Shown: in pieces, positions 3,967 through 60,231 of the stretch | Layout of the letters: each line of letters starts with the position of its first letter | Position numbering within the stretch: the stretch's first letter is position 1 | DNA from: a phage | Length of the DNA stretch: 64,000 nucleotides | Direction: 5' to 3' (one strand) | Assembly (NCBI GenBank): GCA_011911785.1 | Contig: GCA_011911785.1_4084.1 | Notes under the pieces: model-generated | What the model was told of the DNA's origin: nothing | What the model saw: only the letters and a program-made list of their open reading frames with translations | Database searches by the model: none | Program-made: the position numbers and the translations under genes

Positions 3967-5694
3967 ATGAGTTGGAAACGTCACATGACTATGGGAAGAT
4001 CAAAATTATCGATCGTACCCCAGCAATCCAATAGTAATAAATCCACTGGGAGCAAAACTAATTTTGCTTCCTACCTTCCGGTGGTTTATAACGGATTGGC
4101 AAACCGTACTGACCGTTACAGTCAATACGACCAGATGGATCAAGACCCAGAAATCAGAACGGCACTAAACATTATTGCTGACTTTTGTACACAGAGTACT
4201 GAAGATTTTGGTCTACCATATAAAATTAAATATAAAGATAATATTGGTGATACGGAAGTAACCACTATTGAAGACCGCTTAGATGCATGGACTGAACAGA
4301 ATGATTTCAAAACAAGAATGTATGAAATTGTTCGCGGACTACTTAAGTACGGTGACCAGTTCTTTATTCGTGACCCAGAAACATTCGACTGGTATTGGGT
4401 TAACCCAAAAAATGTCGAACAGGTTTTTGTTAACGAAGCAACCGGAAAAACACCAGTAATATACTATATAAGAGATGTATCTCTTAACCTTAAAGATAAA
4501 GTTTTTAGTAACCTTCAAATTGGTTTTGATAAAGCTTCATATCCAGGGGCAATACCGAACACACTAGGTGGTGGTGGTCAAGTTGCCGCAGGTGGTGCAT
4601 CTGGTTTTACCAACCAAGGTAATAGTTCCGATCCATTTAATACAAATGGTCGTATGGATATTATACCAGTTGGTGCAGAACACGTAATTCATCTGTCACT
4701 AAATACAGGACAAGATGGAGTTTGGCCTTTCGGTACAAGTATACTAGAAGATGTCTTTAAAGTCTACAAACAAAAAGAACTTCTTGAAGATAGTATTATT
4801 ATCTATCGTGTACAACGTGCACCAGAACGCCGTGTATTCAAAATTGATGTTGGTGATATGCAAACTCACCAAGCAATGGCATATGTTGAACGCTTTAAAA
4901 ATGAAATCCATCAAAGACGTATACCTTCTAATAAAGGTGGCAGTACTTCATTGATGGATGCAGCATACAACCCACTAAGTATATTGGAAGACTATTTCTT
5001 CCCACAAACTTCTGAAGGTCGTGGTTCAGATGTTCAAACACTACCTGGTGGTGATAACTTAGGTCAGATTGATGACTTGAGATATTTTAATAATAAACTA
5101 ATTCGTGGCTTACAAATCCCAGCATCTTACCTTCCACAAGGTCCAGATGACGGCGGCGTATCACTATTTGGTGATGGTGCAACTCAAGCAATGGCAAGTG
5201 AATTACGTTTTAATAACCAATGTATGCGTTATCAGCGTCTAGTTGCAAAAATTTTCGATGCTGAATTTAAGCGTTTTATGGTAAAAAATGGATATAACAT
5301 TAGTACTTCTTCTTTTGAAGTTATTATGAATCCACCAATTAACTTGGCTTCTTATCGTAAAGCAGAATTGGATGCGAAACTCATTAATACATATATGCCA
5401 CTTAATGAATTACCATATATGGCGAAACAAACTATCCTTGAAAAAATGGGCTTCTCCCAGAAAGATATTGTTAAAAATGAACAGCTATGGTTACAAGAGA
5501 ATCCACAAGATTCTAATGCACCACAACAAGAAGATGTTGCTGGATTACAGTCAGTTGGTATCGACTCTCCTAATGACCCAGGTATGGACCTAGGATTAGA
5601 TGCAGATGGTAATCTGGAAAGTGCTGACGCTGAATACCAAAATCAGCAAGGAAATGGCTCTTTTGACCCTAATAATTTAGGTGAATCTTTTTAA
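3967..5694 (+). CDS. gp20: Portal vertex protein (T4 gp20-like)
   Basis: Segment IIIYRVQRAPERRVFKIDVGDM ... DVQTLPGGDNLGQIDDLRYF matches my recollection of the T4 gp20 core ([21 protein letters not shown] ... DTLPGADNTGNMEDIRWF). Confidence 0.8.
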   Translation: MSWKRHMTMGRSKLSIVPQQSNSNKSTGSKTNFASYLPVVYNGLANRTDRYSQYDQMDQDPEIRTALNIIADFCTQSTEDFGLPYKIKYKDNIGDTEVTTIEDRLDAWTEQNDFKTRMYEIVRGLLKYGDQFFIRDPETFDWYWVNPKNVEQVFVNEATGKTPVIYYIRDVSLNLKDKVFSNLQIGFDKASYPGAIPNTLGGGGQVAAGGASGFTNQGNSSDPFNTNGRMDIIPVGAEHVIHLSLNTGQDGVWPFGTSILEDVFKVYKQKELLEDSIIIYRVQRAPERRVFKIDVGDMQTHQAMAYVERFKNEIHQRRIPSNKGGSTSLMDAAYNPLSILEDYFFPQTSEGRGSDVQTLPGGDNLGQIDDLRYFNNKLIRGLQIPASYLPQGPDDGGVSLFGDGATQAMASELRFNNQCMRYQRLVAKIFDAEFKRFMVKNGYNISTSSFEVIMNPPINLASYRKAELDAKLINTYMPLNELPYMAKQTILEKMGFSQKDIVKNEQLWLQENPQDSNAPQQEDVAGLQSVGIDSPNDPGMDLGLDADGNLESADAEYQNQQGNGSFDPNNLGESF

Positions 5695-5764
5695 TAATAA
5701 ATAACAATGTATATAAATGAAGGGAACGTAAAAAATTCCCTTCATATTAATGCAAGGAGATAGC

Positions 5765-5995
5765 ATGTTAAAGGATATCTTTGAATCGAATTCTGATTCT
5801 ATGTACGACCCTGAAGATGATCAGACCGTATATAAAATTACGGATTCCAGAAAACCCAAACTCACATTGCAAGTACTTAACAATCTGCGTAAGTACAGAG
5901 AATTTAAAGCAAATGAAGAACAGCGTAGAAATAATGTAGTCGCTGTTGTTTATGCTCCAGCACCAGCACCTGATGCTAATGCCGGAATGATGTAA
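5765..5995 (+). CDS. Small prohead-core-like protein (position equivalent to T4 gp67)
   Basis: Small ORF between portal and scaffold genes; aaggaga RBS then ATG at 5765; TATAAATG late-promoter-like motif upstream. Confidence 0.4.
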   Translation: MLKDIFESNSDSMYDPEDDQTVYKITDSRKPKLTLQVLNNLRKYREFKANEEQRRNNVVAVVYAPAPAPDANAGMM

Positions 5996-6007
5996 TACCT
6001 TAAAAAT

Positions 6008-6099
6008 CGCTCTTTTTAAAGCTTTTAAAAATGACGAATTTTTTCAGTACTAAATAATATCATACTTTATAGGAATTAAATATATCTTTGGAGGATATA
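6008..6099 (+). promoter_or_regulatory. Conserved promoter/leader cassette, copy A (ttttaaagc ... ttttttcagtactaaataata ... ctttggagg)
   Basis: Near-duplicate of 8781-8872; contains a CTAAATAAT late-promoter-like element and a strong RBS. Confidence 0.5.
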
Positions 6100-6942
6100 A
6101 TGGCTAATTTAAAACTACTACAAGAAGCAATCGAAGCTTTTGCTAACGGCGAGCAAGATGTAGCTGATAAAAAAATGCGTAAGTACTTTGTTGAACAAGC
6201 ACAAGAAATTAACAAAGAACTAGAAGAAAGCATGGACGACGAAGAATGCTGCGATGAAGACGACAAAGAAGAGAAACTAGAAGAAGACTTCGACGTTTCC
6301 CCAGATGCTGGTCTTAATAGTCAAATCGAATATTCTCTTGGTGAAGAAGACAAGAGTGCTGAAGATGATATCGAATTCCAAGCTGGTGAAGAAGATTCTG
6401 AAGGTGAAGTTGGTGCAGAAGGTGAAGAAGTCCCTTCCGAAGACCAATGGGCTTCCATTCAAGATGCTTTCCGTGGCCTACAACAAATGTTTGATGAAAT
6501 CTCCGGCGAAGGTGAAGTTGACCTAGACGCTGAAGAACCAGTAGGTGGCGAAGAAGAAGTTGATCTAGAAGTTGGTTCCGAAGACGGCGGTGATGATTTC
6601 GCTGATGTTCAATTCGGTGATGAAAAAGTTGGTGAGTCTTTCAAACTAAAAGCAGTTGCTGATGTTGATAAGAAAGAAAAAGCTGGTGCAAATACTAAAT
6701 CCCCAGTCGCTTCCCAAGCTAAATCTCCAGTACAAGGCGTAGCTCCAGTAAAAATCGCTAAAAACTCAACTCCAGTAGTTGATGACAAATTTGATGGCGT
6801 AGATACTGAATCTCACACCGTACCAGAAGATATGAATAATGTTATGGATAGCGGCAAAGGCGTAATGAAAGACGTTAAGAAAGTAACCACTGGTTCTTCT
6901 AAGTCTCGTTCCCCACTACCAAAATCACAACCAAAATTCTAA
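6100..6942 (+). CDS. Highly acidic prohead core/scaffold-like or internal protein
   Basis: ATG at 6100 after ggagga; very Glu/Asp-rich 280-aa product; capsid-like codon usage; sits in the head module. Confidence 0.45.
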   Translation: MANLKLLQEAIEAFANGEQDVADKKMRKYFVEQAQEINKELEESMDDEECCDEDDKEEKLEEDFDVSPDAGLNSQIEYSLGEEDKSAEDDIEFQAGEEDSEGEVGAEGEEVPSEDQWASIQDAFRGLQQMFDEISGEGEVDLDAEEPVGGEEEVDLEVGSEDGGDDFADVQFGDEKVGESFKLKAVADVDKKEKAGANTKSPVASQAKSPVQGVAPVKIAKNSTPVVDDKFDGVDTESHTVPEDMNNVMDSGKGVMKDVKKVTTGSSKSRSPLPKSQPKF

Positions 6943-6972
6943 TAATAAATAAAACAAAGAAAGGAGATCATT

Positions 6973-7593
6973 ATGAGTATGATTCGTGAATGGTCTTCAT
7001 TCAATGATTCACAAATTGTTATGGAACATCGTGATAATGGGCTGGGAGGTCGCGATTGCTATCTTCGTGGTATCGCAATTCAAGCTGACCAGCGTAATTT
7101 GAACGAAAGAATTTACCCTTTAGCCGAAATTGCTAAAGCTGTTAATAATATGGCTCAACGTTTGGCTAAAGGCGAAAGCATTCTAGTAGAATGTGACCAC
7201 CCTGAAACTTTGACTATTAACCTTGACCGTGTAGCAGCAATGATTACTAAAGTCTGGATGGAAGGTTCTAATGGGATGGCAGAAATCAAATTACTTGATA
7301 CTGCACATGGTCAAAATATTCGTAAAATGCTCGAAGCAGGTGTAAAACTTGGTGTAAGTTCTCGTGGTTCCGGTAACGTTGATTATAATGGAATAGTTTC
7401 TGATTTCGAAATTATCACAATTGATATTGTTGCTCAACCTAGTGCTCCCGAAGCGTACCCAACAGCGGTATTTGAGTCTTTGATGAGTAAGTACGGCTCA
7501 CCTTGCAATGGACCTAAAAAAATCACAGAATCTAAATCAGTAAATAAACTAGATTCTGAAATTTATGATTTTTTCAAGAAATTAAAAGGTTAA
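6973..7593 (+). CDS. gp21: Prohead core protease (T4 gp21-like)
   Basis: 206 aa; position between core and scaffold genes; GVSSRGSG segment resembles the T4 gp21 region as I remember it. Confidence 0.6.
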   Translation: MSMIREWSSFNDSQIVMEHRDNGLGGRDCYLRGIAIQADQRNLNERIYPLAEIAKAVNNMAQRLAKGESILVECDHPETLTINLDRVAAMITKVWMEGSNGMAEIKLLDTAHGQNIRKMLEAGVKLGVSSRGSGNVDYNGIVSDFEIITIDIVAQPSAPEAYPTAVFESLMSKYGSPCNGPKKITESKSVNKLDSEIYDFFKKLKG

Positions 7594-7604
7594 CATTTTA
7601 AAAT

Positions 7605-7612
7605 TATAAATA
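7605..7612 (+). promoter_or_regulatory. T4-type late promoter motif TATAAATA
   Basis: Exact TATAAATA about 50 nt upstream of the scaffold gene start. Confidence 0.45.
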
Positions 7613-7661
7613 TTTGTATATTTGAAGTACAGATATTTCAGTACTTAAAGGAGAGAACAGA

Positions 7662-8780
7662 ATGTCTAAATTAGAAAAGCTTCTAAAAGAATCATCTCTT
7701 TCTGATGAAGCAAAACAGCTAATTCAGGAAGCATGGAATGAAGAAAAGAACACACTAGCCGCTGAAATGCGTGAAGAAATGAAAGGCCGTTATAAACAAG
7801 ACCTAGCTGAACTAACAGAAGGTCTTAACACTATGGTTACTCAAGTTATCGCTGAAGAAATGGGTGCAGTATATGACGAGAAAAAACGTCTCGTTGAAGA
7901 CCGCGTTACCCTCCGTAAAACTCTTGGTAACTTCTCTGAATTCGCTAATTCAGTACTAGCTGAAGAAGTTAAACAAATGCGTAACGAACGTAAACTAGTT
8001 CAAGAAAGCCTCGGTAAATTCGTTAATTTCTCTAACGGTATCCTAGCTGAAGAACTAAAAGAATTCCACAGCGAAAAACGTCAACTAGTAGAAGCTCGTG
8101 TAAAACTACTTGCTGAAGGTTCTCGTCAAATTGCAGAAGCACGTAATAACTTTATCAAACGTACCTCTGAAAGTGCTGCTAAATATATTGCAGAAACCAC
8201 TCAGAAAAATCTTTACGCTTTGAAACAAGATCTTGCTGAAGCTAAACAAAATATGTTCGGTCGTAAAATCTTTGAAGCATTTGCTCAAGAATTTAATACC
8301 AAACAATTTAATGAGAATTCACTACTTCGTTCTTTGACTGAATCAATCAAATCTAAAGAAGATGAGATTGCTCAAGTTAAACAAGAACTAAATGAATCTG
8401 TTAACGCAGTTAAAGAAGTTCAATCAAAACTACGTATCATGGAAGATACACAGGCACGCAATGCGATTATGTCTGAATTGGTTAAGCCTTTGACTAGTCA
8501 ACAAAAACAAATTATGGAATCCCTTCTAGCTGCTTCTCCAACAGAAAAGCTTAAAGAAGATTTCAGCAAGTACCATAAGTCTGTACTTAACGGTACTAAA
8601 GTAAATGAATCTGCTACCACTCGTCAAGCAGTTCAACCTTCAGCGAAGAAAACAACCCTAGCAGAAGGTAAAGTAATCACTGGCAACCGTCAGGCTATTG
8701 TTGAAAGCGAAGAAATGACCGCTGACGATATGGCATTCCTAAAAGAACTCGACGTTCTTTCTGGTATCAATAAAAAATAA
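7662..8780 (+). CDS. gp22: Prohead scaffold protein (T4 gp22-like), coiled-coil
   Basis: 372 aa, Glu/Lys/Ala/Gln-rich with heptad-like pattern; immediately upstream of the major capsid gene. Confidence 0.5.
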   Translation: MSKLEKLLKESSLSDEAKQLIQEAWNEEKNTLAAEMREEMKGRYKQDLAELTEGLNTMVTQVIAEEMGAVYDEKKRLVEDRVTLRKTLGNFSEFANSVLAEEVKQMRNERKLVQESLGKFVNFSNGILAEELKEFHSEKRQLVEARVKLLAEGSRQIAEARNNFIKRTSESAAKYIAETTQKNLYALKQDLAEAKQNMFGRKIFEAFAQEFNTKQFNENSLLRSLTESIKSKEDEIAQVKQELNESVNAVKEVQSKLRIMEDTQARNAIMSELVKPLTSQQKQIMESLLAASPTEKLKEDFSKYHKSVLNGTKVNESATTRQAVQPSAKKTTLAEGKVITGNRQAIVESEEMTADDMAFLKELDVLSGINKK

Positions 8781-8872
8781 ACATTTTAAAGCATTTTAAT
8801 AATCAATTTTTTCAGTACCATAAATAATAACATACTGAAAAACGAATATAACATCTTTAAGGAGATAATATA
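8781..8872 (+). promoter_or_regulatory. Conserved promoter/leader cassette, copy B (ttttaaagc ... ttttttcagtaccataaataata ... ctttaaggag)
   Basis: Near-duplicate of 6008-6099, directly upstream of the major capsid gene. Confidence 0.5.
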
Positions 8873-10048
8873 ATGTCACAACTACTAAATGAATCCAAAT
8901 GGGTAGCAGTTAAAGAGAAACTAGTTGAAGGTCTTCAAGGTACTCGTAAATCCGTAATGGAAACCGTTCTTGATAACCATCGTAAAGTTATGCTACAAGA
9001 ATCTGCAACCGCTGGTGCAACTTCTGCTGGTAACATCGCTACTCTAAACAAAGTGATTCTACCAATTATGCGTCGTGTAATGCCAACCGTTATCGCTAAC
9101 GAAATCATCGGTGTTCAACCAATGACTGGCCCAGTTGGTCAAATCCACACTCTACGTGTTCAATACGCTGACAACGCACCAGGTGTTGTAGCTGGCGAAG
9201 AAATGCTATCTCCATTCAAGATTGCTAAATCTTACACTGGTGAGCTAAACTCTGACAACAGCAACCCACAAGCTGCTCCTACTAGCCAACTAGAAGGTAC
9301 TATGGGTCGTCGCGTTAACATCCGTATCCTACGTGAAACTGTTGAAGCGAAATCTCGTCGTCTATCTGCACGTTGGACTGTTGAATCTGCACAAGATGCA
9401 CAATCTCAACATGGTATCGACGTTGAAGCTGAACTAATGGCTGCTATCGCACAAGAAGTTACCGTTGAAATCGACCAAGAACTACTAAGCCGTCTACGTG
9501 CTCTACCAGGTGCTGCTGCTGTAACTTATGACCAATCTAAAGTAACTGGCGTTGCTACTTTCGTTGGTGATGAGCACGCTGCTCTAGCTACCCTAATCAA
9601 CCGTCAAGCGAACGAAGTTGCTCGTCGTACCAAACGTGGTGCTGCGAACTGGGCTGTTGTTTCCCCAACCGCTCTAACTATTCTACAATCTGCAACTACT
9701 TCTAGCTTTGCACGTACTACTGAAGGTACTTTTGAAGCACCAACTAACGTTAAATTCGTTGGTACTCTAAACAGCACCATGCGTATCTTTGTTGATACCT
9801 ACGCAAGTGACGTAGAAGATATTCTAATTGGTTATAAAGGTAATGCAGAAACTGATGCTGGTGTATTCTATTGCCCATACATCCCACTAATGGCATCTGG
9901 TACTGTTATGGACCCTAACACTGGAGAACTCGTTACAACTTTCTTAACCAGATACGGGTATGTTCAGTTGACCGATAGCACCAGTTCACTAGGTAACGCT
10001 GCGGACTACTACAGCAAAATCGCTATCAAAAACGTTACTTTCATGTAA
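8873..10048 (+). CDS. gp23: Major capsid protein (T4 gp23-like)
   Basis: IMRRVMPTVIANEIIGVQPM, QIHTLRVQYA, VEAKSRRLSA and IGYKGNAETDAGVFYCPYIPL parallel remembered T4 gp23 motifs (MVRRAIPNLIAFDICGVQPM, IEAKSRQLKA, VGYKGPNEMDAGIYYAPYVAL). Confidence 0.85.
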   Translation: MSQLLNESKWVAVKEKLVEGLQGTRKSVMETVLDNHRKVMLQESATAGATSAGNIATLNKVILPIMRRVMPTVIANEIIGVQPMTGPVGQIHTLRVQYADNAPGVVAGEEMLSPFKIAKSYTGELNSDNSNPQAAPTSQLEGTMGRRVNIRILRETVEAKSRRLSARWTVESAQDAQSQHGIDVEAELMAAIAQEVTVEIDQELLSRLRALPGAAAVTYDQSKVTGVATFVGDEHAALATLINRQANEVARRTKRGAANWAVVSPTALTILQSATTSSFARTTEGTFEAPTNVKFVGTLNSTMRIFVDTYASDVEDILIGYKGNAETDAGVFYCPYIPLMASGTVMDPNTGELVTTFLTRYGYVQLTDSTSSLGNAADYYSKIAIKNVTFM

Positions 10049-10070
10049 TAATAAAGAATTTAAATATACT

Positions 10071-10101
10071 AGGGACTCTTCGGAGTCCCTTTTCTTTTTT
10101 T
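10071..10101 (+). terminator. Intrinsic terminator after the major capsid gene
   Basis: Hairpin agggactcttcggagtccct followed by tttctttttt. Confidence 0.7.
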
Positions 10102-10113
10102 CAGAAAAAAAGC

Positions 10114-10142
10114 TTGACAAGTAGATTTTAATTATATATAAT
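10114..10142 (+). promoter_or_regulatory. Sigma70-type promoter TTGACA-N17-TATAAT
   Basis: TTGACA at 10114-10119, 17-nt spacer, TATAAT at 10137-10142, about 36 nt upstream of the CDS at 10178. Confidence 0.65.
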
Positions 10143-10177
10143 TACCACATACCAAAAATCACAAAGAGACAAATAAA

Positions 10178-11284
10178 ATGCCAAAAGTAAGTATCGACAA
10201 AGAAAAATTCATTGAAGAGATGAACAACAAGTATGGAGCATATGGTGAATTTGATTTCAGCACTTTAGTATTCAAAGCCAGTAAGACAACAGTTAAATGT
10301 AATAAATGCGGAAAAGAAAATACTAAACCTGCACTACGTCACATTTCATGTACATGTTCTTCATGTTATTCAAACATGTCACAGCGTTCGAACAACGAAA
10401 AATTTATCAGCACGGTAGAAACTAAATTTGGAAAAGATAAATTCAAATTTGATAAACTAAATTACATTAACGCTATAACAAAAGTAACAATACTCTGTAC
10501 AGACGAAGAACATAACGATTACTTTGAAATTACACCAAACAAATTTCTTACTGGTAAGGGATGTCCTATATGTAATAAAAATGAAGCATACAGTACTGAA
10601 GAATTCGTAGAAAAAGTAAAAGAAAATTATGGTGATTCATTAGATTTAACTAACACAGTATATGTAAATCAAAAAACTAAAGTAACTGTGTATTGTAAAG
10701 CGGGTAACCATGAATGGACAGTTGATCCGAAAACTTTACTTGTTGGTAAGACTGGTTGTGGTACATGCTCCGGTAAAGGTGGTCGCAGTACTGAACGTTT
10801 CATTGAACTGGTATCACCTATCCATAACCATAAGTATGATTATAGTTTGGTTGAATATACTATAAGCGAGAATTATGTTGATATTGTATGTCCAACTCAT
10901 GGTGTTTTCTCCCAACAACCAAAAGCACATATGGCTGGTAAAGGATGCCCATCATGTGGTGAATATGGATATCAGCCATCAAAACCTGGATATTTCTATG
11001 TTCAAAAACTAACTAATAAAGATAAGACAGTGTACAAGTATGGAATCACTGGCGATATGAAACGCCGTGTAAATGAGCAAAGTCGTCATTCTGATTTTGA
11101 ACACACTGTACTCGTTGAACGTTACTTTGAAGATGGTCATAAACCATTAGTACTGGAAAAGTTTTTGAAACAATACATTGATAGTGGTGTAGTAACTACT
11201 GAAGAGTTGCCATCAGGATTCACAGAAACTTTTGATGCTAAGTATCTTGAAACAGTACTGGAGATTGTAAATACATTTGAATAA
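10178..11284 (+). CDS. GIY-YIG/T5orf172-like protein with N-terminal tandem Cys-rich zinc-ribbon-like repeats
   Basis: Four repeats of roughly TKVTxxC...H...GKGCPxC; C-terminal GYFYVQKL...TVYKYGITGDMKRRVNEQ resembles a GIY-YIG/T5orf172 core. Confidence 0.6.
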   Translation: MPKVSIDKEKFIEEMNNKYGAYGEFDFSTLVFKASKTTVKCNKCGKENTKPALRHISCTCSSCYSNMSQRSNNEKFISTVETKFGKDKFKFDKLNYINAITKVTILCTDEEHNDYFEITPNKFLTGKGCPICNKNEAYSTEEFVEKVKENYGDSLDLTNTVYVNQKTKVTVYCKAGNHEWTVDPKTLLVGKTGCGTCSGKGGRSTERFIELVSPIHNHKYDYSLVEYTISENYVDIVCPTHGVFSQQPKAHMAGKGCPSCGEYGYQPSKPGYFYVQKLTNKDKTVYKYGITGDMKRRVNEQSRHSDFEHTVLVERYFEDGHKPLVLEKFLKQYIDSGVVTTEELPSGFTETFDAKYLETVLEIVNTFE

Positions 11285-11659: not shown

Positions 11660-11689
11660 TAATAAATATCTCCATACTAGGAGATATCT

Positions 11690-11998
11690 ATGTCACAAAT
11701 ATGTTATGTAATCACTAATAGTGCATGGCCTGAATATGTAAAGATAGGCTTCACTACAAAATCAGAGATGAAAGAGCGTTTAGGTGTTTATCAGACAGCT
11801 TCACCATTCAGGGATTTTGAGGTATACCATCAGGTTATGTTTGACGATGCACGAACAGCAGAAAAGGAAGTGCATAAGAGATTAAAGCAAATGAATGCAA
11901 CAAGGCAACCTAACTCTGAATGGTTCAAGATGCCTAAAAAGTTAGCTGCAAATATTATTGATTCCGTATTGGATGATATGGAAAATGATTTACTATAG
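11690..11998 (+). CDS. Small T5orf172/GIY-YIG-like protein
   Basis: ICYVITNSAWPEYVKIGFTT ... ERL ... NSEWFKMP pattern typical of the T5orf172 family; RBS aggag upstream. Confidence 0.55.
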   Translation: MSQICYVITNSAWPEYVKIGFTTKSEMKERLGVYQTASPFRDFEVYHQVMFDDARTAEKEVHKRLKQMNATRQPNSEWFKMPKKLAANIIDSVLDDMENDLL

Positions 11999-13652: not shown

Positions 13653-14108
13653 ATGATAACTTTAAAAAACTTTAAAAAATATGAAGGTAATGAACCTGAA
13701 TTGAAAGGAATGAATATCGCATATTATATTTCTGAGTGTGGAATGGATTGGTATGATTCACATAAATTATTTTCAGAAGATACATTAAAAATAACAGTAG
13801 ATAAAAATGGTATGGTAACTAGTGCATCGTATGATGTTACTATGCTCTGTCCATTAGATGATAGTGTATATGAAATTGAATATACAGGGGATAAATCTGA
13901 ACTAGTTGGTAAAATTTACAACGAAGTTAACGGAACTTTCTCCGAAAGACCTCCACGCCAACTATCTGCACAACAAGTATTCAATCTTTTGAGTGAACGC
14001 AAAAAAGTACTGGACATGAAGAAAGAATTCGATATGTTGAGTACTGAAGAAGCTGCTGAGTACGAGAAGCTAATCTCTGATCTTAAAGAAGTTTTAAACC
14101 TTCTTTAA
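13653..14108 (+). CDS. Hypothetical protein (possible fibre assembly chaperone by position)
   Basis: 151-aa ORF immediately after the fibre-like gene; no motif support. Confidence 0.35.
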   Translation: MITLKNFKKYEGNEPELKGMNIAYYISECGMDWYDSHKLFSEDTLKITVDKNGMVTSASYDVTMLCPLDDSVYEIEYTGDKSELVGKIYNEVNGTFSERPPRQLSAQQVFNLLSERKKVLDMKKEFDMLSTEEAAEYEKLISDLKEVLNLL

Positions 14109-14143
14109 AAATTTGGGACACATTGAGAAGTACTGATATAATA

Positions 14144-14186
14144 GAGACATTCCACGAGGAACATTGTGGAGTGTCTATTTTTTTTC
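14144..14186 (+). terminator. Intrinsic terminator
   Basis: Imperfect hairpin agacattccac...gtggagtgtct followed by atttttttt. Confidence 0.55.
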
Positions 14187-17768: not shown

Positions 17769-18063
17769 TGTTTACAAACGTATTGGTGCAGTACTGGAAG
17801 ATAGTACTATCGTAAATTCAGTACTGGCATACAATAATGATGATGAAGTTGTTCTAATGTCCGCTGGTTTCACCAGAACTGGTTCTGTTGAAATTGACGG
17901 CGAGATTGTAGATGTCTATTCTATTGAAAAGAAACGAAAAGTTGTCGTTGTTGATAATGTCAACACATTAAAAGATTTAGAAAATCTACGTTACAAATTC
18001 AACATTGGTACAAATGTAAACGTTGATAAGCCGTACCTTAAACGTTGGAACACAAAATACTGA
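17761..18063 (+). CDS. Hypothetical protein
   Basis: 100-aa ORF overlapping the upstream stop by 8 nt. Confidence 0.4.
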   Translation: MSNVYKRIGAVLEDSTIVNSVLAYNNDDEVVLMSAGFTRTGSVEIDGEIVDVYSIEKKRKVVVVDNVNTLKDLENLRYKFNIGTNVNVDKPYLKRWNTKY

Positions 18064-18156
18064 TAAAATAATTGAGACAAGCATCATTTACGAGATATAA
18101 TGGTGCTTGTCATAGACTTGACATTAACGAACAAAACAATAAACGGAGAATATATA

Positions 18157-23259: not shown

Positions 23260-28153
<4,894 letters not shown>

Positions 28154-43075: not shown

Positions 43076-43408
43076 ATGAAATTCAGTGATCTAACTGAAG
43101 ATGCACCACCAAAAGACATTCGCAACATGATCACATCTATTGCATTGTCTCTGGTATCTTCTGGTCGTGAAGAAGTGAATTTGCAATCCTTAATTTCCGA
43201 AATTAAAAAAAGAACTAACATCGACGTACCTTACAATGTGATGATGGATATTCTTAACACATTGCCATTTGTACAAGATGTTAATTCTGATATAGTGAAA
43301 TTTGCAGGTGCTGATGGGGACACAAATCCATCACCTGATGGACAAGAAAATTCAGAAGAACAGGTCACCGACTGGGCTACTAAAGCTGCATCTGTAACTA
43401 AAGATTAA
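43076..43408 (+). CDS. Hypothetical protein
   Basis: 110-aa ORF. Confidence 0.4.
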   Translation: MKFSDLTEDAPPKDIRNMITSIALSLVSSGREEVNLQSLISEIKKRTNIDVPYNVMMDILNTLPFVQDVNSDIVKFAGADGDTNPSPDGQENSEEQVTDWATKAASVTKD

Positions 43409-43414
43409 AAAATT

Positions 43415-43442
43415 GAGACAAACAAAAATATAGTGCTATAAT
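43415..43442 (+). promoter_or_regulatory. Promoter-like motif GAGACA-N16-TATAAT with extended -10
   Basis: GAGACA at 43415-43420; AGTGCTATAAT ending at 43442. Confidence 0.4.
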
Positions 43443-43455
43443 TAGGAGTACACGG

Positions 43456-58881: not shown

Positions 58882-59735
58882 TGCCATCTAAATCAAAATC
58901 ACAGGCTCGCTTTATGGCGGCAGCAGCACATGATCCAGAATTTGCTAAACGTAATGGTATTTCACAAGATGCTGCGAAAGAGTGGAATCATGCTGATGAA
59001 AAAGCTGGAAATCTTAAAAAAGGGGCGAAGTTGCCCCAACACGTTAAAAAGAAAACAACCGAATCTTCGATGAAAGGTTGGGTTGATATAATTCAAGATG
59101 CAGAAATTGCACAGGACAATCCTGAAATTGATGATACAATGGATGTACACGCAGATGATTGTGAGTGTGAACAGTGTTGTCAAAATAAAGAACATCACTT
59201 CTATGAAAATACTGAGAAGTTGGAAGAAATGCCACAACGCTTTGATAGTTTTCAGGGACAAGACCGTGATGAGTTTGTCGATAAGACAGCAGAAATGACA
59301 GGTAAACATAACATGGTAATCTTTGCTAAACATAACGATTATGATGTTTATCAGAATAAGAACGGAACTGGTTTTATTGCATATGATAAAAGTGGTAAGC
59401 AACTAGCAATTGTCAGTGGACATACTTCAAATGATGCAGTACTAGGTGTTCAGAATGTTTTCGAAATCGCAGCAACTGCATCTAAAACTGGCACAAAAGG
59501 TATCATTTACACTATCTTTATGGATATGGTAAAGCACGGATACGCTATACTTAGTGATAGTTTACACACTGATGATGCAATTAAATTTTGGACTCGACTA
59601 ATTGGTTCACATCAAGTGTACATTGTTGGTGGTGGTGAAGTTTTAGCAAAGGCAACACCAGAAAAAGTTCACAAATATTGGAGTGATGATGAGACAAGCC
59701 CAAGTGCTGAGTTACAATTACTCCTTGTTAAATAA
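58881..59735 (+). CDS. Hypothetical protein
   Basis: 284-aa ORF, ATG overlapping upstream stop. Confidence 0.5.
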
Positions 59736-60169: not shown

Positions 60170-60231
60170 GAGACAAATAAACTTTTCGTGATACAATATC
60201 ACAAGACACAGAGACACTAAAAGGAATTAAA

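What the first reader, a model, noticed from the sequence alone, without database searches (positions are those of the whole stretch)
6008..8872. Duplicated ~90-bp promoter/leader cassette upstream of two highly expressed head genes
The regions 6008-6099 and 8781-8872 share the ordered elements ttttaaagc(a)ttttaa, ttttttcagtac(c/t)(a)taaataata, catact, and ctttggagg/ctttaaggag before the ATG. The taaataata element resembles a T4-type late promoter and the 3' part is a strong RBS. Related ttcagtact motifs occur near 7634 and 45361. This looks like a dedicated late expression module.
Basis: seen in the sequence. Interest (0 to 1): 0.5.

Follow-up and report, generated by a model that had tools for sequence, protein, structure and literature searches.

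The report
Paired T4-type late promoters, head genes
Two look-alike stretches in front of a head-core protein gene and the major capsid gene of a RaK2/121Q-like jumbo coliphage are ordinary T4-type late promoters with short leaders and strong ribosome-binding sites, and their extra resemblance comes from a decayed terminator and a conserved hairpin rather than from a special expression module.

Summary
The 6008-6099 and 8781-8872 regions are the most similar of 153 pairs of late-promoter regions in the window. They are the only two BLAST-detectable copies in the near-identical Escherichia phage A4 genome.

The core, (N)NTAAATAAT-N2-CATAC, is a T4-type late promoter. ATAAATA occurs 20 times in 64 kb. 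Seventeen copies are intergenic and 16 point at a gene start 22-110 nt away, mostly a structural gene. The family encodes a gp55-like late sigma, and the motif was already reported for relatives GAP32 and CBB.

The other shared elements are not promoter parts:
- In cassette 1, TTTTAAAGCTTTTAA plus the T-run is the top and U-tract of an intrinsic terminator. It is conserved with compensatory changes in 13 phages and is weak in this lineage.
- In cassette 2, TTTTTCAGTA is the 5' arm of a conserved hairpin (3' arm TACTGAAAAA) that encloses the promoter box.
- TTCAGTAC is not promoter-specific. It occurs 32 times, mostly inside genes, because AGTACT is about 4-fold over-represented across this phage clade.

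The long upstream similarity is largely lineage-specific: strong in Asteriusvirus, moderate in Munch and RaK2, weak or absent in the other genera. Verdict: a known kind of element, of low interest. Two unexplained extras are the promoter-enclosing hairpins and the AGTACT excess.

The parts
6002..6044 (+). AU-rich hairpin ending in T6 (6039-6044). This is a weak or decayed intrinsic terminator after the portal/gp67-like unit.
   Evidence: RNA fold gives -5.6 to -7 kcal/mol, z about -1.5, in the window. The orthologous hairpin is -10 to -19 kcal/mol (z -3.3 to -7.6) in 11 of the 12 other phages and weaker in Hallingskeid (-6.6, z -4.2). Stem sequences differ between lineages (GCCATTTT/AAAATGG, ATCCGTTTT/AAAACGGAT, AGCGATTTT/AAAATCGCT). 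It is annotated as a terminator in Salmonella phage Munch.
6049..6056 (+). Late-promoter box ACTAAATA, a variant with C at -12, in front of the virion structural protein gene.
   Evidence: It aligns with TATAAATA/AATAAATA in the other genera. The T4 consensus TATAAATA spans -13 to -6 (PMC2988020).
6061..6066 (+). CATACT initiation region. The predicted transcription start is A6062, inferred from T4 geometry and not mapped.
   Evidence: CATAC lies at a fixed distance from the box in nearly all relatives at both genes. The same spacing is seen at 11663-11676.
6062..6099 (+). Predicted 38-nt AU-rich leader with SD GGAGG (6090-6094) inside a small conserved inverted repeat ATATCTTT/GGAGGATAT.
6100..6942 (+). 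Virion structural protein gene (acidic, 280 aa) at the position of T4 gene 68.
   Evidence: phrog_15696, head and packaging. A4_7 annotation. T4 gene order.
7605..7612 (+). Perfect TATAAATA box of the scaffolding-protein gene.
7608..7638 (+). Hairpin AAATATTTGTAT/GTACAGATATTT. Its 5' arm overlaps the box and the predicted start (A7618). It is followed by the conserved CAGTACTT (7639-7646) next to the SD.
   Evidence: Fold -8.7 to -9.7 kcal/mol. It is present in 11 of 13 relatives, with stems that differ by G-U and C-G changes.
8784..8799 (+). TTTTAAAGCATTTTAA, a look-alike of the cassette-1 terminator apex that forms no hairpin here.
   Evidence: Fold energy is 0 kcal/mol. Relatives have only TTAAAGCTAAT or TTAAATGCTAAT here.
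8808..8817 (+). 5' arm (TTTTTCAGTA) of the hairpin that encloses the capsid-gene late promoter.
   Evidence: 10-bp stem, -7.1 kcal/mol, z -3.9. There are 8-11 contiguous pairs in 11 of 12 variants.
8819..8826 (+). Late-promoter box CATAAATA of the major capsid gene, lying in the hairpin loop.
8833..8842 (+). 3' arm (TACTGAAAAA) of the hairpin. The predicted start A8832 lies just before it, so locally initiated mRNA lacks the 5' arm.
   Evidence: Compensatory flip: CAG/CTG here against CTG/CAG in GAP32, CBB, BF, Yen9-04 and XbC2. XaC1 has TTG/CAA.
8859..8864 (+). SD AAGGAG of the capsid gene, 8 nt before the ATG, within the conserved ATCTTT..AAGGAGAT.
8873..10048 (+). Major capsid protein gene (gp23-like).
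10071..10100 (+). Strong intrinsic terminator closing the head-gene late transcription unit.
   Evidence: 8-bp stem with 5 GC pairs, followed by a T-run.

Best explanation
Each 'cassette' is a T4-type late promoter followed by a short leader and a strong ribosome-binding site.

How it most likely works:
- Host RNA polymerase core carrying the phage's gp55-like late sigma recognises the single box (N)NTAAATA(AT) about one helical turn upstream of the start.
- Transcription most likely starts at the A of the conserved CATAC (A6062 and A8832).
- This gives 38- and 41-nt AU-rich leaders with GGAGG or AAGGAG. Both steps are inferred from T4 geometry.

The two promoters belong to a set of five late boxes spaced through the head-gene block: gp67-like, gp68-position structural protein, protease, scaffold and capsid. 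The block ends at one strong terminator after the capsid gene, so the capsid gene is served by nested transcripts plus its own promoter.

The additional shared sequence is not promoter:
- In front of the first gene it is the apex and U-tract of an intrinsic terminator that insulates the block from the portal unit. That terminator is degraded in this lineage.
- In front of the capsid gene it is a terminator-like remnant plus the 5' arm of a conserved hairpin whose loop holds the promoter box. The hairpin can form only on read-through RNA, not on RNA started at this promoter.

The unusually high similarity of the two upstream halves is largely lineage-specific. It probably reflects an old duplication of a terminator-promoter unit, followed by short-patch gene conversion in the A4/121Q lineage. 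This last point is inference.
For: Box statistics:
- 20 ATAAATA in 128 kb of both strands.
- 17 are in the 8% of sequence that is intergenic.
- 16 are oriented toward a start codon 22-110 nt downstream, most of them in front of genes annotated as structural or head-morphogenesis.
- Only 3 lie in 58.9 kb of coding sequence.

Footprinting over 17 phages from several genera keeps box, CATAC and SD in register at both genes.

A4_588, 4.5 kb upstream of the window, matches PHROG 'late sigma transcription factor' (phrog_234, 3e-17; phrog_12791, 1e-151).

The CBB paper reports the ATAAATA motif at 35 sites before structural genes in CBB, reports that it also precedes structural genes in GAP32, and reports a gp55-like sigma (PMC5259590).

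T4 late promoters are an 8-bp box at -13 to -6, with an AT-rich downstream segment and no -35 element (PMC2988020).

Terminator: hairpins plus a U-run in all 13 lineages, with different stem sequences and an annotation in Munch.

Hairpin around the capsid promoter.

Lineage specificity of the upstream similarity: z 8.3 and 6.8 in Asteriusvirus, about 4 in Munch and RaK2, at most 2.6 elsewhere. There are two BLAST places in A4 and one in 121Q-type genomes.
Against: - No transcript 5' or 3' ends exist for any member of this clade in the literature searched. Start sites, timing and terminator function are therefore inferred.
- The box of the first gene has C at -12, a position almost invariant in T4, so that promoter may be weak.
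- The sigma has no Pfam hit and no PDB sequence hit.
- gp33 and gp45 homologues were not found in CBB by its authors and were not sought here.
- The window's own terminator hairpin is not significantly more stable than shuffles (z about -1.5) and fails the simple terminator scan.
- Gene conversion rests on a 14-nt identical patch only.
Confidence: 0.78

Rival explanations
1. A mobile or recombinogenic terminator-promoter cassette, that is, a 'late' counterpart of the PeSL elements of T4-type phages. On this reading it was copied between the two sites and can mediate rearrangements.
For: The composite stem-loop + promoter + RBS architecture and the significant similarity upstream of the box. 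PeSLs are composite terminator/promoter repeats implicated in shuffling (PMC4122927; PMC2839356).
Against: Only two copies exist in 355 kb. Both sites are orthologously conserved, with box, CATAC and SD at the same places in every genus and, for the first gene, even in Vibrio and Pseudomonas relatives. They are therefore old residents, not recent insertions. They sit in the conserved core head module, and recombination between them would delete the protease and scaffold genes. The promoter is of the late type, not sigma-70.
Confidence: 0.1
2. The inverted repeat around the capsid promoter (and the AGTACT-like half-sites) is a DNA operator for a dimeric phage regulator that tunes capsid-gene transcription.
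For: Symmetric arms flank the -10-like box. The arms resemble the two halves of the clade-wide over-represented palindrome TCAGTACTGA.
Against: The distance from the left arm to the box varies (1, 3 or 4 nt) while the right arm is fixed, so half-site spacing is not kept. The arms tolerate G-T 'pairs' only in the sense-strand direction (RaK2, XaC1, Hallingskeid). In GAP32-type phages the arms are CTGTA/TACAG, yet the genome-wide enriched word is still AGTACT and not TGTACA.
Confidence: 0.08
3. The boxes are sigma-70 promoters (a weak -35 plus AATAAT) used by unmodified host polymerase.
For: The consensus scan lists ATGACG-16-AATAAT at 6031-6058, 9 of 12 matches.
Against: Such matches are fewer than in shuffles (8 against 11.6). 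The putative -35 is not conserved in relatives. The window has a distinct, clearly different promoter class (TTGAGACA-N15-TATAAT) in front of replication genes.
Confidence: 0.03

Closest known systems
Bacteriophage T4 late promoters (gp55-dependent, TATAAATA)
   Same: There is a single 8-bp A/T box one helical turn before the start. The segment downstream is AT-rich and there is no shared -35 element across the class. The boxes sit before virion genes. A gp55-like sigma is encoded by the phage. The head-gene order is the same (20-67-68-21-22-23), with internal late promoters before the scaffold and capsid genes.
   Different: The consensus here is relaxed at -13 (any base) and extended downstream (TAAATAAT..CATAC). 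The first gene's box has C at -12. The co-activator gp33 and a clamp partner are not identified in this clade. The capsid and scaffold promoters lie in real intergenic spacers and are enclosed by hairpins. T4 P23 lies inside gene 22 and shows no comparable long-range hairpin; the fold gave only a 5-bp stem-loop, GAGUA-UAAA-UACUC, on the box itself.
ATAAATA late-promoter motif predicted in Cronobacter phage GAP32 and Pectobacterium phage CBB (Buttimer et al. 2017, PMC5259590)
   Same: Same clade, same motif, same association with structural genes. The two sites studied here are orthologous to sites in those genomes.
   Different: Not mentioned in the passages of that paper read here: the terminator-promoter coupling, the CATAC start region, the pairwise similarity of the two head-gene promoters in Asteriusvirus, and the hairpins enclosing the promoters.
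T4 genes e, soc, 49 and I-TevI: a late promoter embedded in a hairpin, so that read-through and locally started mRNAs fold differently (PMC3014915)
   Same: The 5' arm of the capsid-gene hairpin lies upstream of the predicted late start, so only read-through RNA can fold. The same holds for the scaffold gene and for the T5orf172 gene at 11690.
   Different: In T4 the 3' arm sequesters the SD or AUG. At the capsid gene the 3' arm ends 16 nt before the SD, so translation is not obviously blocked. Only the T5orf172 gene (8-bp ATATCTCC/GGAGATAT) fits the T4 mechanism fully.
PeSL/PmSL composite terminator-promoter cassettes of T4-type phages (PMC2839356, PMC4122927)
   Same: A stem-loop followed closely by a promoter, occurring as repeated look-alike units.
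   Different: PeSLs carry sigma-70-type early or middle promoters, occur in many copies in hyperplastic regions and flank variable ORFs. Here there are two copies with late promoters in the conserved head module.

Membership tests
T4-type late promoter | 8-bp TATAAATA-like box at about -13 to -6 | tested here: met
   CATAAATA at 8819-8826 (7 of 8 matches). ACTAAATA at 6049-6056 (6 of 8, deviating at -13 and -12). Orthologues carry TATAAATA, AATAAATA or GATAAATA. The position relative to the start is inferred, not measured.
T4-type late promoter | Motif concentrated upstream of late (virion) genes and rare elsewhere | tested here: met
   17 of 20 ATAAATA are intergenic and 16 are oriented to a nearby start codon, mostly of structural genes. 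Only 3 lie in 58.9 kb of coding sequence.
T4-type late promoter | No conserved -35 element across the class | tested here: met
   The upstream 43 nt of 18 promoter regions score like shuffles (7.0 +/- 2.1 against 8.2 +/- 1.8), except for this one pair.
T4-type late promoter | Phage-encoded gp55-family sigma | tested here: met
   A4_588 matches phrog_234 'late sigma transcription factor' at 3e-17. It lies outside the window, in the near-identical phage A4. There is no Pfam or PDB sequence hit.
T4-type late promoter | Dependence on gp33 co-activator and the gp45 sliding clamp | not tested
   The CBB authors found no gp33 or gp45 homologues. No search was made here.
T4-type late promoter | Late-appearing primary transcripts starting about 6 nt after the box | not testable with these tools
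   No transcript-end data for this clade were found.
Intrinsic (Rho-independent) terminator (upstream half of cassette 1) | Stable stem-loop directly followed by a U-run | tested here: inconclusive
   In the window the hairpin is -5.6 to -7 kcal/mol, z about -1.5, with T6 present, and it is not called by the scan. Orthologues are -6.6 to -18.7 kcal/mol, z -3.3 to -7.6, with different stem sequences. It is annotated as a terminator in Munch.
T4 e/soc/49/I-TevI-type inhibitory leader hairpin | Late promoter or start placed so that the locally initiated RNA lacks the 5' arm | tested here: met
   Arm at 8808-8817, box at 8819-8826, predicted start at 8832.
T4 e/soc/49/I-TevI-type inhibitory leader hairpin | 3' arm sequesters the SD and/or start codon | tested here: not met
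   The 3' arm is 8833-8842 and the SD is 8859-8864. The feature is met only at the neighbouring T5orf172 gene.
PeSL-type mobile regulatory cassette | Many dispersed copies at indel boundaries in variable regions, with a sigma-70-type promoter | tested here: not met
   There are two copies in the A4 genome, both at orthologously conserved core positions, and the box is of the late type.

The most novel reading that the evidence does not exclude
In RaK2/121Q-like jumbo phages the internal late promoters of the head-gene block (scaffold and capsid) are deliberately enclosed in conserved RNA hairpins. Polycistronic read-through RNA and locally initiated RNA of the same gene then differ in structure. 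The phage would use this difference (processing, stability or leader accessibility) to set the very different amounts of protease, scaffold and capsid protein. This would extend the T4 e/I-TevI principle to hairpins that do not touch the ribosome-binding site.
Probability: 0.3. Interest if true: 0.45.

Novelty: new member of a known kind. Interest (0 to 1): 0.22.

Why it matters
It gives a precise, testable map of late transcription signals for the head-gene block of an understudied group of 350-kb coliphages: box, likely start, leader, terminator and read-through hairpins. It also corrects the idea of a special duplicated module. The promoter type itself is already known from T4 and was already predicted in this clade, so the finding does not change understanding. 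The promoter-enclosing hairpins and the clade-wide AGTACT excess are the only parts that could lead somewhere new.

Tried and rejected
- Chance similarity in AT-rich DNA: rejected by pairwise and shuffle statistics.
- TTCAGTAC as a promoter element: rejected. It is variable at the first gene in other genera. There are 32 copies, mostly in coding sequence. It is explained by the AGTACT excess.
- The hairpin arms as split sites of the same factor that might read AGTACT: tested by asking whether GAP32 (arms CTGTA/TACAG) enriches TGTACA. It does not; AGTACT is enriched there too.
- A real terminator in front of the capsid gene: no hairpin (0 kcal/mol).
- Rfam scan of 5600-10300: only a chance RNAIII fragment.
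- PDB sequence search and Pfam for the late sigma: nothing.
- 78 IMG/VR relatives at about 67% capsid identity: they have no scaffold-capsid spacer at all, so they could not extend the covariation test.
- Pattern scan of IMG/VR for the box-CATAC-GAAAA core: it returned only known lineages plus an unrelated group with a terminator abutting ATAAATAA.
- The PA5oct RNA-seq paper: it reports only sigma-70-like motifs and gives nothing on late boxes.
- T4 P22 and P23: no comparable long-range enclosing hairpins. The fold showed only a 5-bp stem-loop on the P23 box itself.
Full report
**Source of the window.** The window is 98-99.9% identical to Escherichia phage A4 (ON286972.1). A4 belongs to genus Asteriusvirus, a RaK2/121Q-like jumbo myovirus of 355 kb. 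The gene order around the finding is:
- portal (3967-5694)
- a 76-aa protein (5765-5995)
- a 280-aa acidic virion structural protein (6100-6942)
- prohead protease (6973-7593)
- scaffolding protein (7662-8780)
- major capsid protein (8873-10048)

This is the T4 order 20-67-68-21-22-23. Cassette 1 therefore precedes the gene at the gp68 position, and cassette 2 precedes the capsid gene.

**Observation.** I compared 100-nt regions around 18 late-type boxes of the window.
- The pair in question scores 44 in local alignment, against 14.2 +/- 4.6 for all 153 pairs.
- The 43 nt upstream of the box alone score 23, against 7.0 +/- 2.1. The maximum in 2000 shuffles was 17.
- The leader between start region and RBS is only mildly similar.
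- BLAST of cassette 2 against 50,697 phage records finds two places in A4 and only one in each 121Q-type genome.

The resemblance is real, it involves exactly two copies, and most of it lies upstream of the box.

**The box is a late promoter.** Evidence from the window:
- ATAAATA occurs 20 times on the two strands of the window.
- 17 copies are in the 8% of the sequence that is intergenic.
- 16 of those point toward a start codon 22-110 nt away, most of them in front of genes annotated as structural or head-morphogenesis.
- Only 3 copies lie in 58.9 kb of coding sequence.

Supporting evidence:
- The head block alone has boxes before the gp67-like gene (5697), the structural protein (6051), the protease (6945), the scaffold (7605, a perfect TATAAATA) and the capsid gene (8820).
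- T4 late promoters are exactly such a box at -13 to -6, with an AT-rich segment downstream and no -35 element (PMC2988020).
- A4 encodes a 'sigma factor for late transcription' 4.5 kb upstream of the window. It matches the PHROG of late sigma factors at 3e-17.
- For the related phages CBB and GAP32 the same ATAAATA motif has been reported before structural genes, together with a gp55-like sigma (PMC5259590).

With T4 geometry the starts fall on the A of the conserved CATAC, at A6062 and A8832. This is an inference. No transcript-end data exist for the clade in the library searched.

**Footprinting of the remaining elements.** I fetched the block from 16 other phages covering Asteriusvirus, Alcyoneusvirus, Mimasvirus, Eneladusvirus, several unclassified lineages, a Vibrio phage and PA5oct.

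At the first gene every lineage has a hairpin followed by a U-run and then the box.
- The stems differ in sequence but stay complementary: GCCATTTT/AAAATGG, ATCCGTTTT/AAAACGGAT, AGCGATTTT/AAAATCGCT, GGGGCAT/ATGCCCC.
- Energies are -6.6 to -18.7 kcal/mol, with z from -3.3 to -7.6.
- The Munch record annotates the hairpin as a terminator.
- In the window the hairpin has decayed to -5.6 kcal/mol, z -1.4.
- The bases between the U-tract and the box are CAGTAC here and AGTACG, AAAAAG, CAATC, CTTACTA, ATTAATA or AAGGC elsewhere. They are not conserved, so TTCAGTAC is not a promoter element at this gene.

At the capsid gene there is no terminator (0 kcal/mol). Instead TTTTTCAGTA (8808-8817) pairs with TACTGAAAAA (8833-8842) around the box, at -7.1 kcal/mol, z -3.9.
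- In 11 of 12 sequence variants there are 8-11 contiguous pairs, with P of 0.035 or less against shuffled upstream sequence.
- Asteriusvirus, Munch, Hallingskeid and RaK2 have CAG/CTG.
- GAP32, CBB, BF, Yen9-04 and XbC2 have CTG/CAG, which is a two-sided compensatory flip.
- XaC1 has TTG/CAA.
- Single changes give G-U in the sense strand.
- The left arm shifts by 1-3 nt relative to the box while the right arm is fixed.

These features favour an RNA hairpin over a DNA operator. Because the predicted start lies between the arms, only read-through RNA from the upstream late promoters can form the hairpin. The 3' arm does not reach the SD, so this is not the T4 e/soc/49/I-TevI mechanism (PMC3014915). 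Its function is unknown. I consider an intercistronic processing or stability signal most likely. The scaffold gene shows the same layout: hairpin 7608-7638 overlaps box and start and is present in 11 of 13 relatives.

**Why the two upstream halves look alike.** Similarity between the two upstream halves is:
- z 8.3 in the window and 6.8 in 121Q
- about 4 in Munch and RaK2
- 2.6 or less in Hallingskeid, EJP2, GAP32, XbC2, BF and Yen9-04
- absent in XaC1 and the Vibrio phage

In all genera the capsid spacer keeps a ...AAAGCT/AAATGCTAAT-TTTTTC... segment that resembles the 3' half of the terminator of the first gene. This suggests an old duplication of a terminator-promoter unit whose 5' arm was lost. 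In the A4 lineage a 14-nt patch (AATTTTTTCAGTAC) is identical between the two sites, although each differs from its 121Q orthologue. I read that as short-patch gene conversion. This is inference from a small patch.

**The 'related' motifs.** AGTACT occurs 122 times in the window.
- 28 are expected from a second-order Markov model, and 38 +/- 4.5 after synonymous-codon shuffling.
- The flanks are symmetric, and CAGTACTG occurs 25 times.
- Of 107 Ser-Thr dipeptides, 64 are written AGT-ACT, against 16 expected.
- Among the 16 NGTACN words only palindromes deviate: AGTACT 244 against 56, GGTACC 0 against 29, CGTACG 0 against 15.
- The excess is shared by GAP32, RaK2, XaC1 and the others. It is absent from 469 kb of environmental relatives and from the Vibrio and Pseudomonas relatives.
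- 40% of alignable sites are shared in position with GAP32, against about 16% expected.

TTCAGTACT near 7637 and 45363 is therefore unsurprising. The one at 7637 is in addition a conserved leader element, CAGTACTT, next to the scaffold SD.

**Comparison and verdict.** The finding is a correct sighting of two members of a known promoter class in a clade where that class had already been predicted. It is not a dedicated module and not a PeSL-like mobile cassette (PMC4122927). There are two copies, both at orthologously conserved core positions. The new details are:
- the terminator-promoter coupling
- the CATAC start region
- lineage-specific homogenisation of the two sites
- hairpins that enclose internal late promoters

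Interest is low for the finding as stated. The hairpins and the AGTACT excess are worth a note.

Noticed in passing
whole window (122 sites); also L099 (GAP32, 50 kb): The palindrome AGTACT is about 4-fold over-represented: 122 sites against 38 +/- 4.5 after synonymous-codon shuffling. It has symmetric flanks (CAGTACTG occurs 25 times) and is found in all reading frames. 64 of 107 Ser-Thr dipeptides are written AGT-ACT. The excess is shared by the enterobacterial RaK2-like genera but absent from environmental, Vibrio and Pseudomonas relatives. No explanation was found and nothing turned up in the literature search.
   Followed up: partly
whole window: GGTACC, CGTACG and AGCGCT are completely absent. 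GGTACC is 0 against about 29 expected and CGTACG is 0 against about 15 (both strands). The non-palindromic NGTACN words are at expectation. This looks like restriction-site avoidance sitting next to the AGTACT excess.
   Followed up: partly
window 11660-11692: In front of the T5orf172-domain gene (11690-11998), a late box TAATAAATA is followed by a perfect 8-bp hairpin ATATCTCC-ATACTA-GGAGATAT that buries the SD. The fold is -12 kcal/mol, and only -0.9 once the 5' arm is removed. The predicted late start lies in the loop. GAP32 has the same layout with a different stem (ACCCCAC/GAGGGGT). This fits the T4 e/I-TevI type of translational control of read-through RNA.
   Followed up: partly
window 7605-7653: The scaffold-gene late promoter (a perfect TATAAATA) is overlapped by a hairpin at 7608-7638 that is present in 11 of 13 relatives. 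A conserved CAGTACTT lies directly before the SD in the enterobacterial genera that have a full-length spacer; RaK2's shorter spacer lacks it.
   Followed up: partly
window 5717-5745: The leader of the gp67-like gene carries a 10-bp hairpin, ATGAAGGGAA/TTCCCTTCAT. Most enterobacterial-clade relatives examined have a hairpin at the same place with quite different stem sequences; RaK2 shows none. It may be a 5' stabiliser.
   Followed up: no
window 14107-14147, 18055-18101, 26969-27009, 43407-43447, about 60170-60210: A second promoter class, T(T/G)GAGACA-N14-15-(TG)nTATAAT, precedes replication genes (SSB, exonuclease, topoisomerase and others). It probably corresponds to the 'divergent RpoD-like' promoters described for CBB and GAP32.
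   Followed up: no
window 10071-10142: Directly after the strong capsid-gene terminator lies a perfect sigma-70 consensus promoter, TTGACA-17-TATAAT, 12 of 12 matches. It drives a 368-aa hypothetical gene (10178-11284) for which GAP32 annotates different genes at that place.
   Followed up: no
window about 14108 and about 58882-58926: Relative to phage A4 the window lacks about 700 bp, including A4_16 'tail fibre chaperone', and about 200 bp further on. Elsewhere identity is 98-99.9%.
   Followed up: no
window 23266-25577: The large terminase is annotated as two ORFs separated by 275 nt (23266-23964 and 24240-25577). In GAP32 the two parts overlap. This may be a mis-called start or an intervening element.
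   Followed up: no
L132 (T4) 7803-7826, compared with window 8819-8840: The T4 gene 23 late promoter reads GAGTATAAATACTCCTGATACTGAAG. It shares ATACTGAA with the start region of the capsid promoter here, at nearly the same distance from the box. It also has AGTA..TACT flanking the box. This may be coincidence.
   Followed up: no
L101, L104, L106-L108, L110, L119, L129 (IMG/VR): An unrelated group of viral contigs has a GC-rich terminator whose T-run runs straight into ATAAATAACTTCATACAGAAAAGAAGTT, followed by an ATG. This is another terminator-abutting late-type box, with a small inverted repeat around the start.
   Followed up: no
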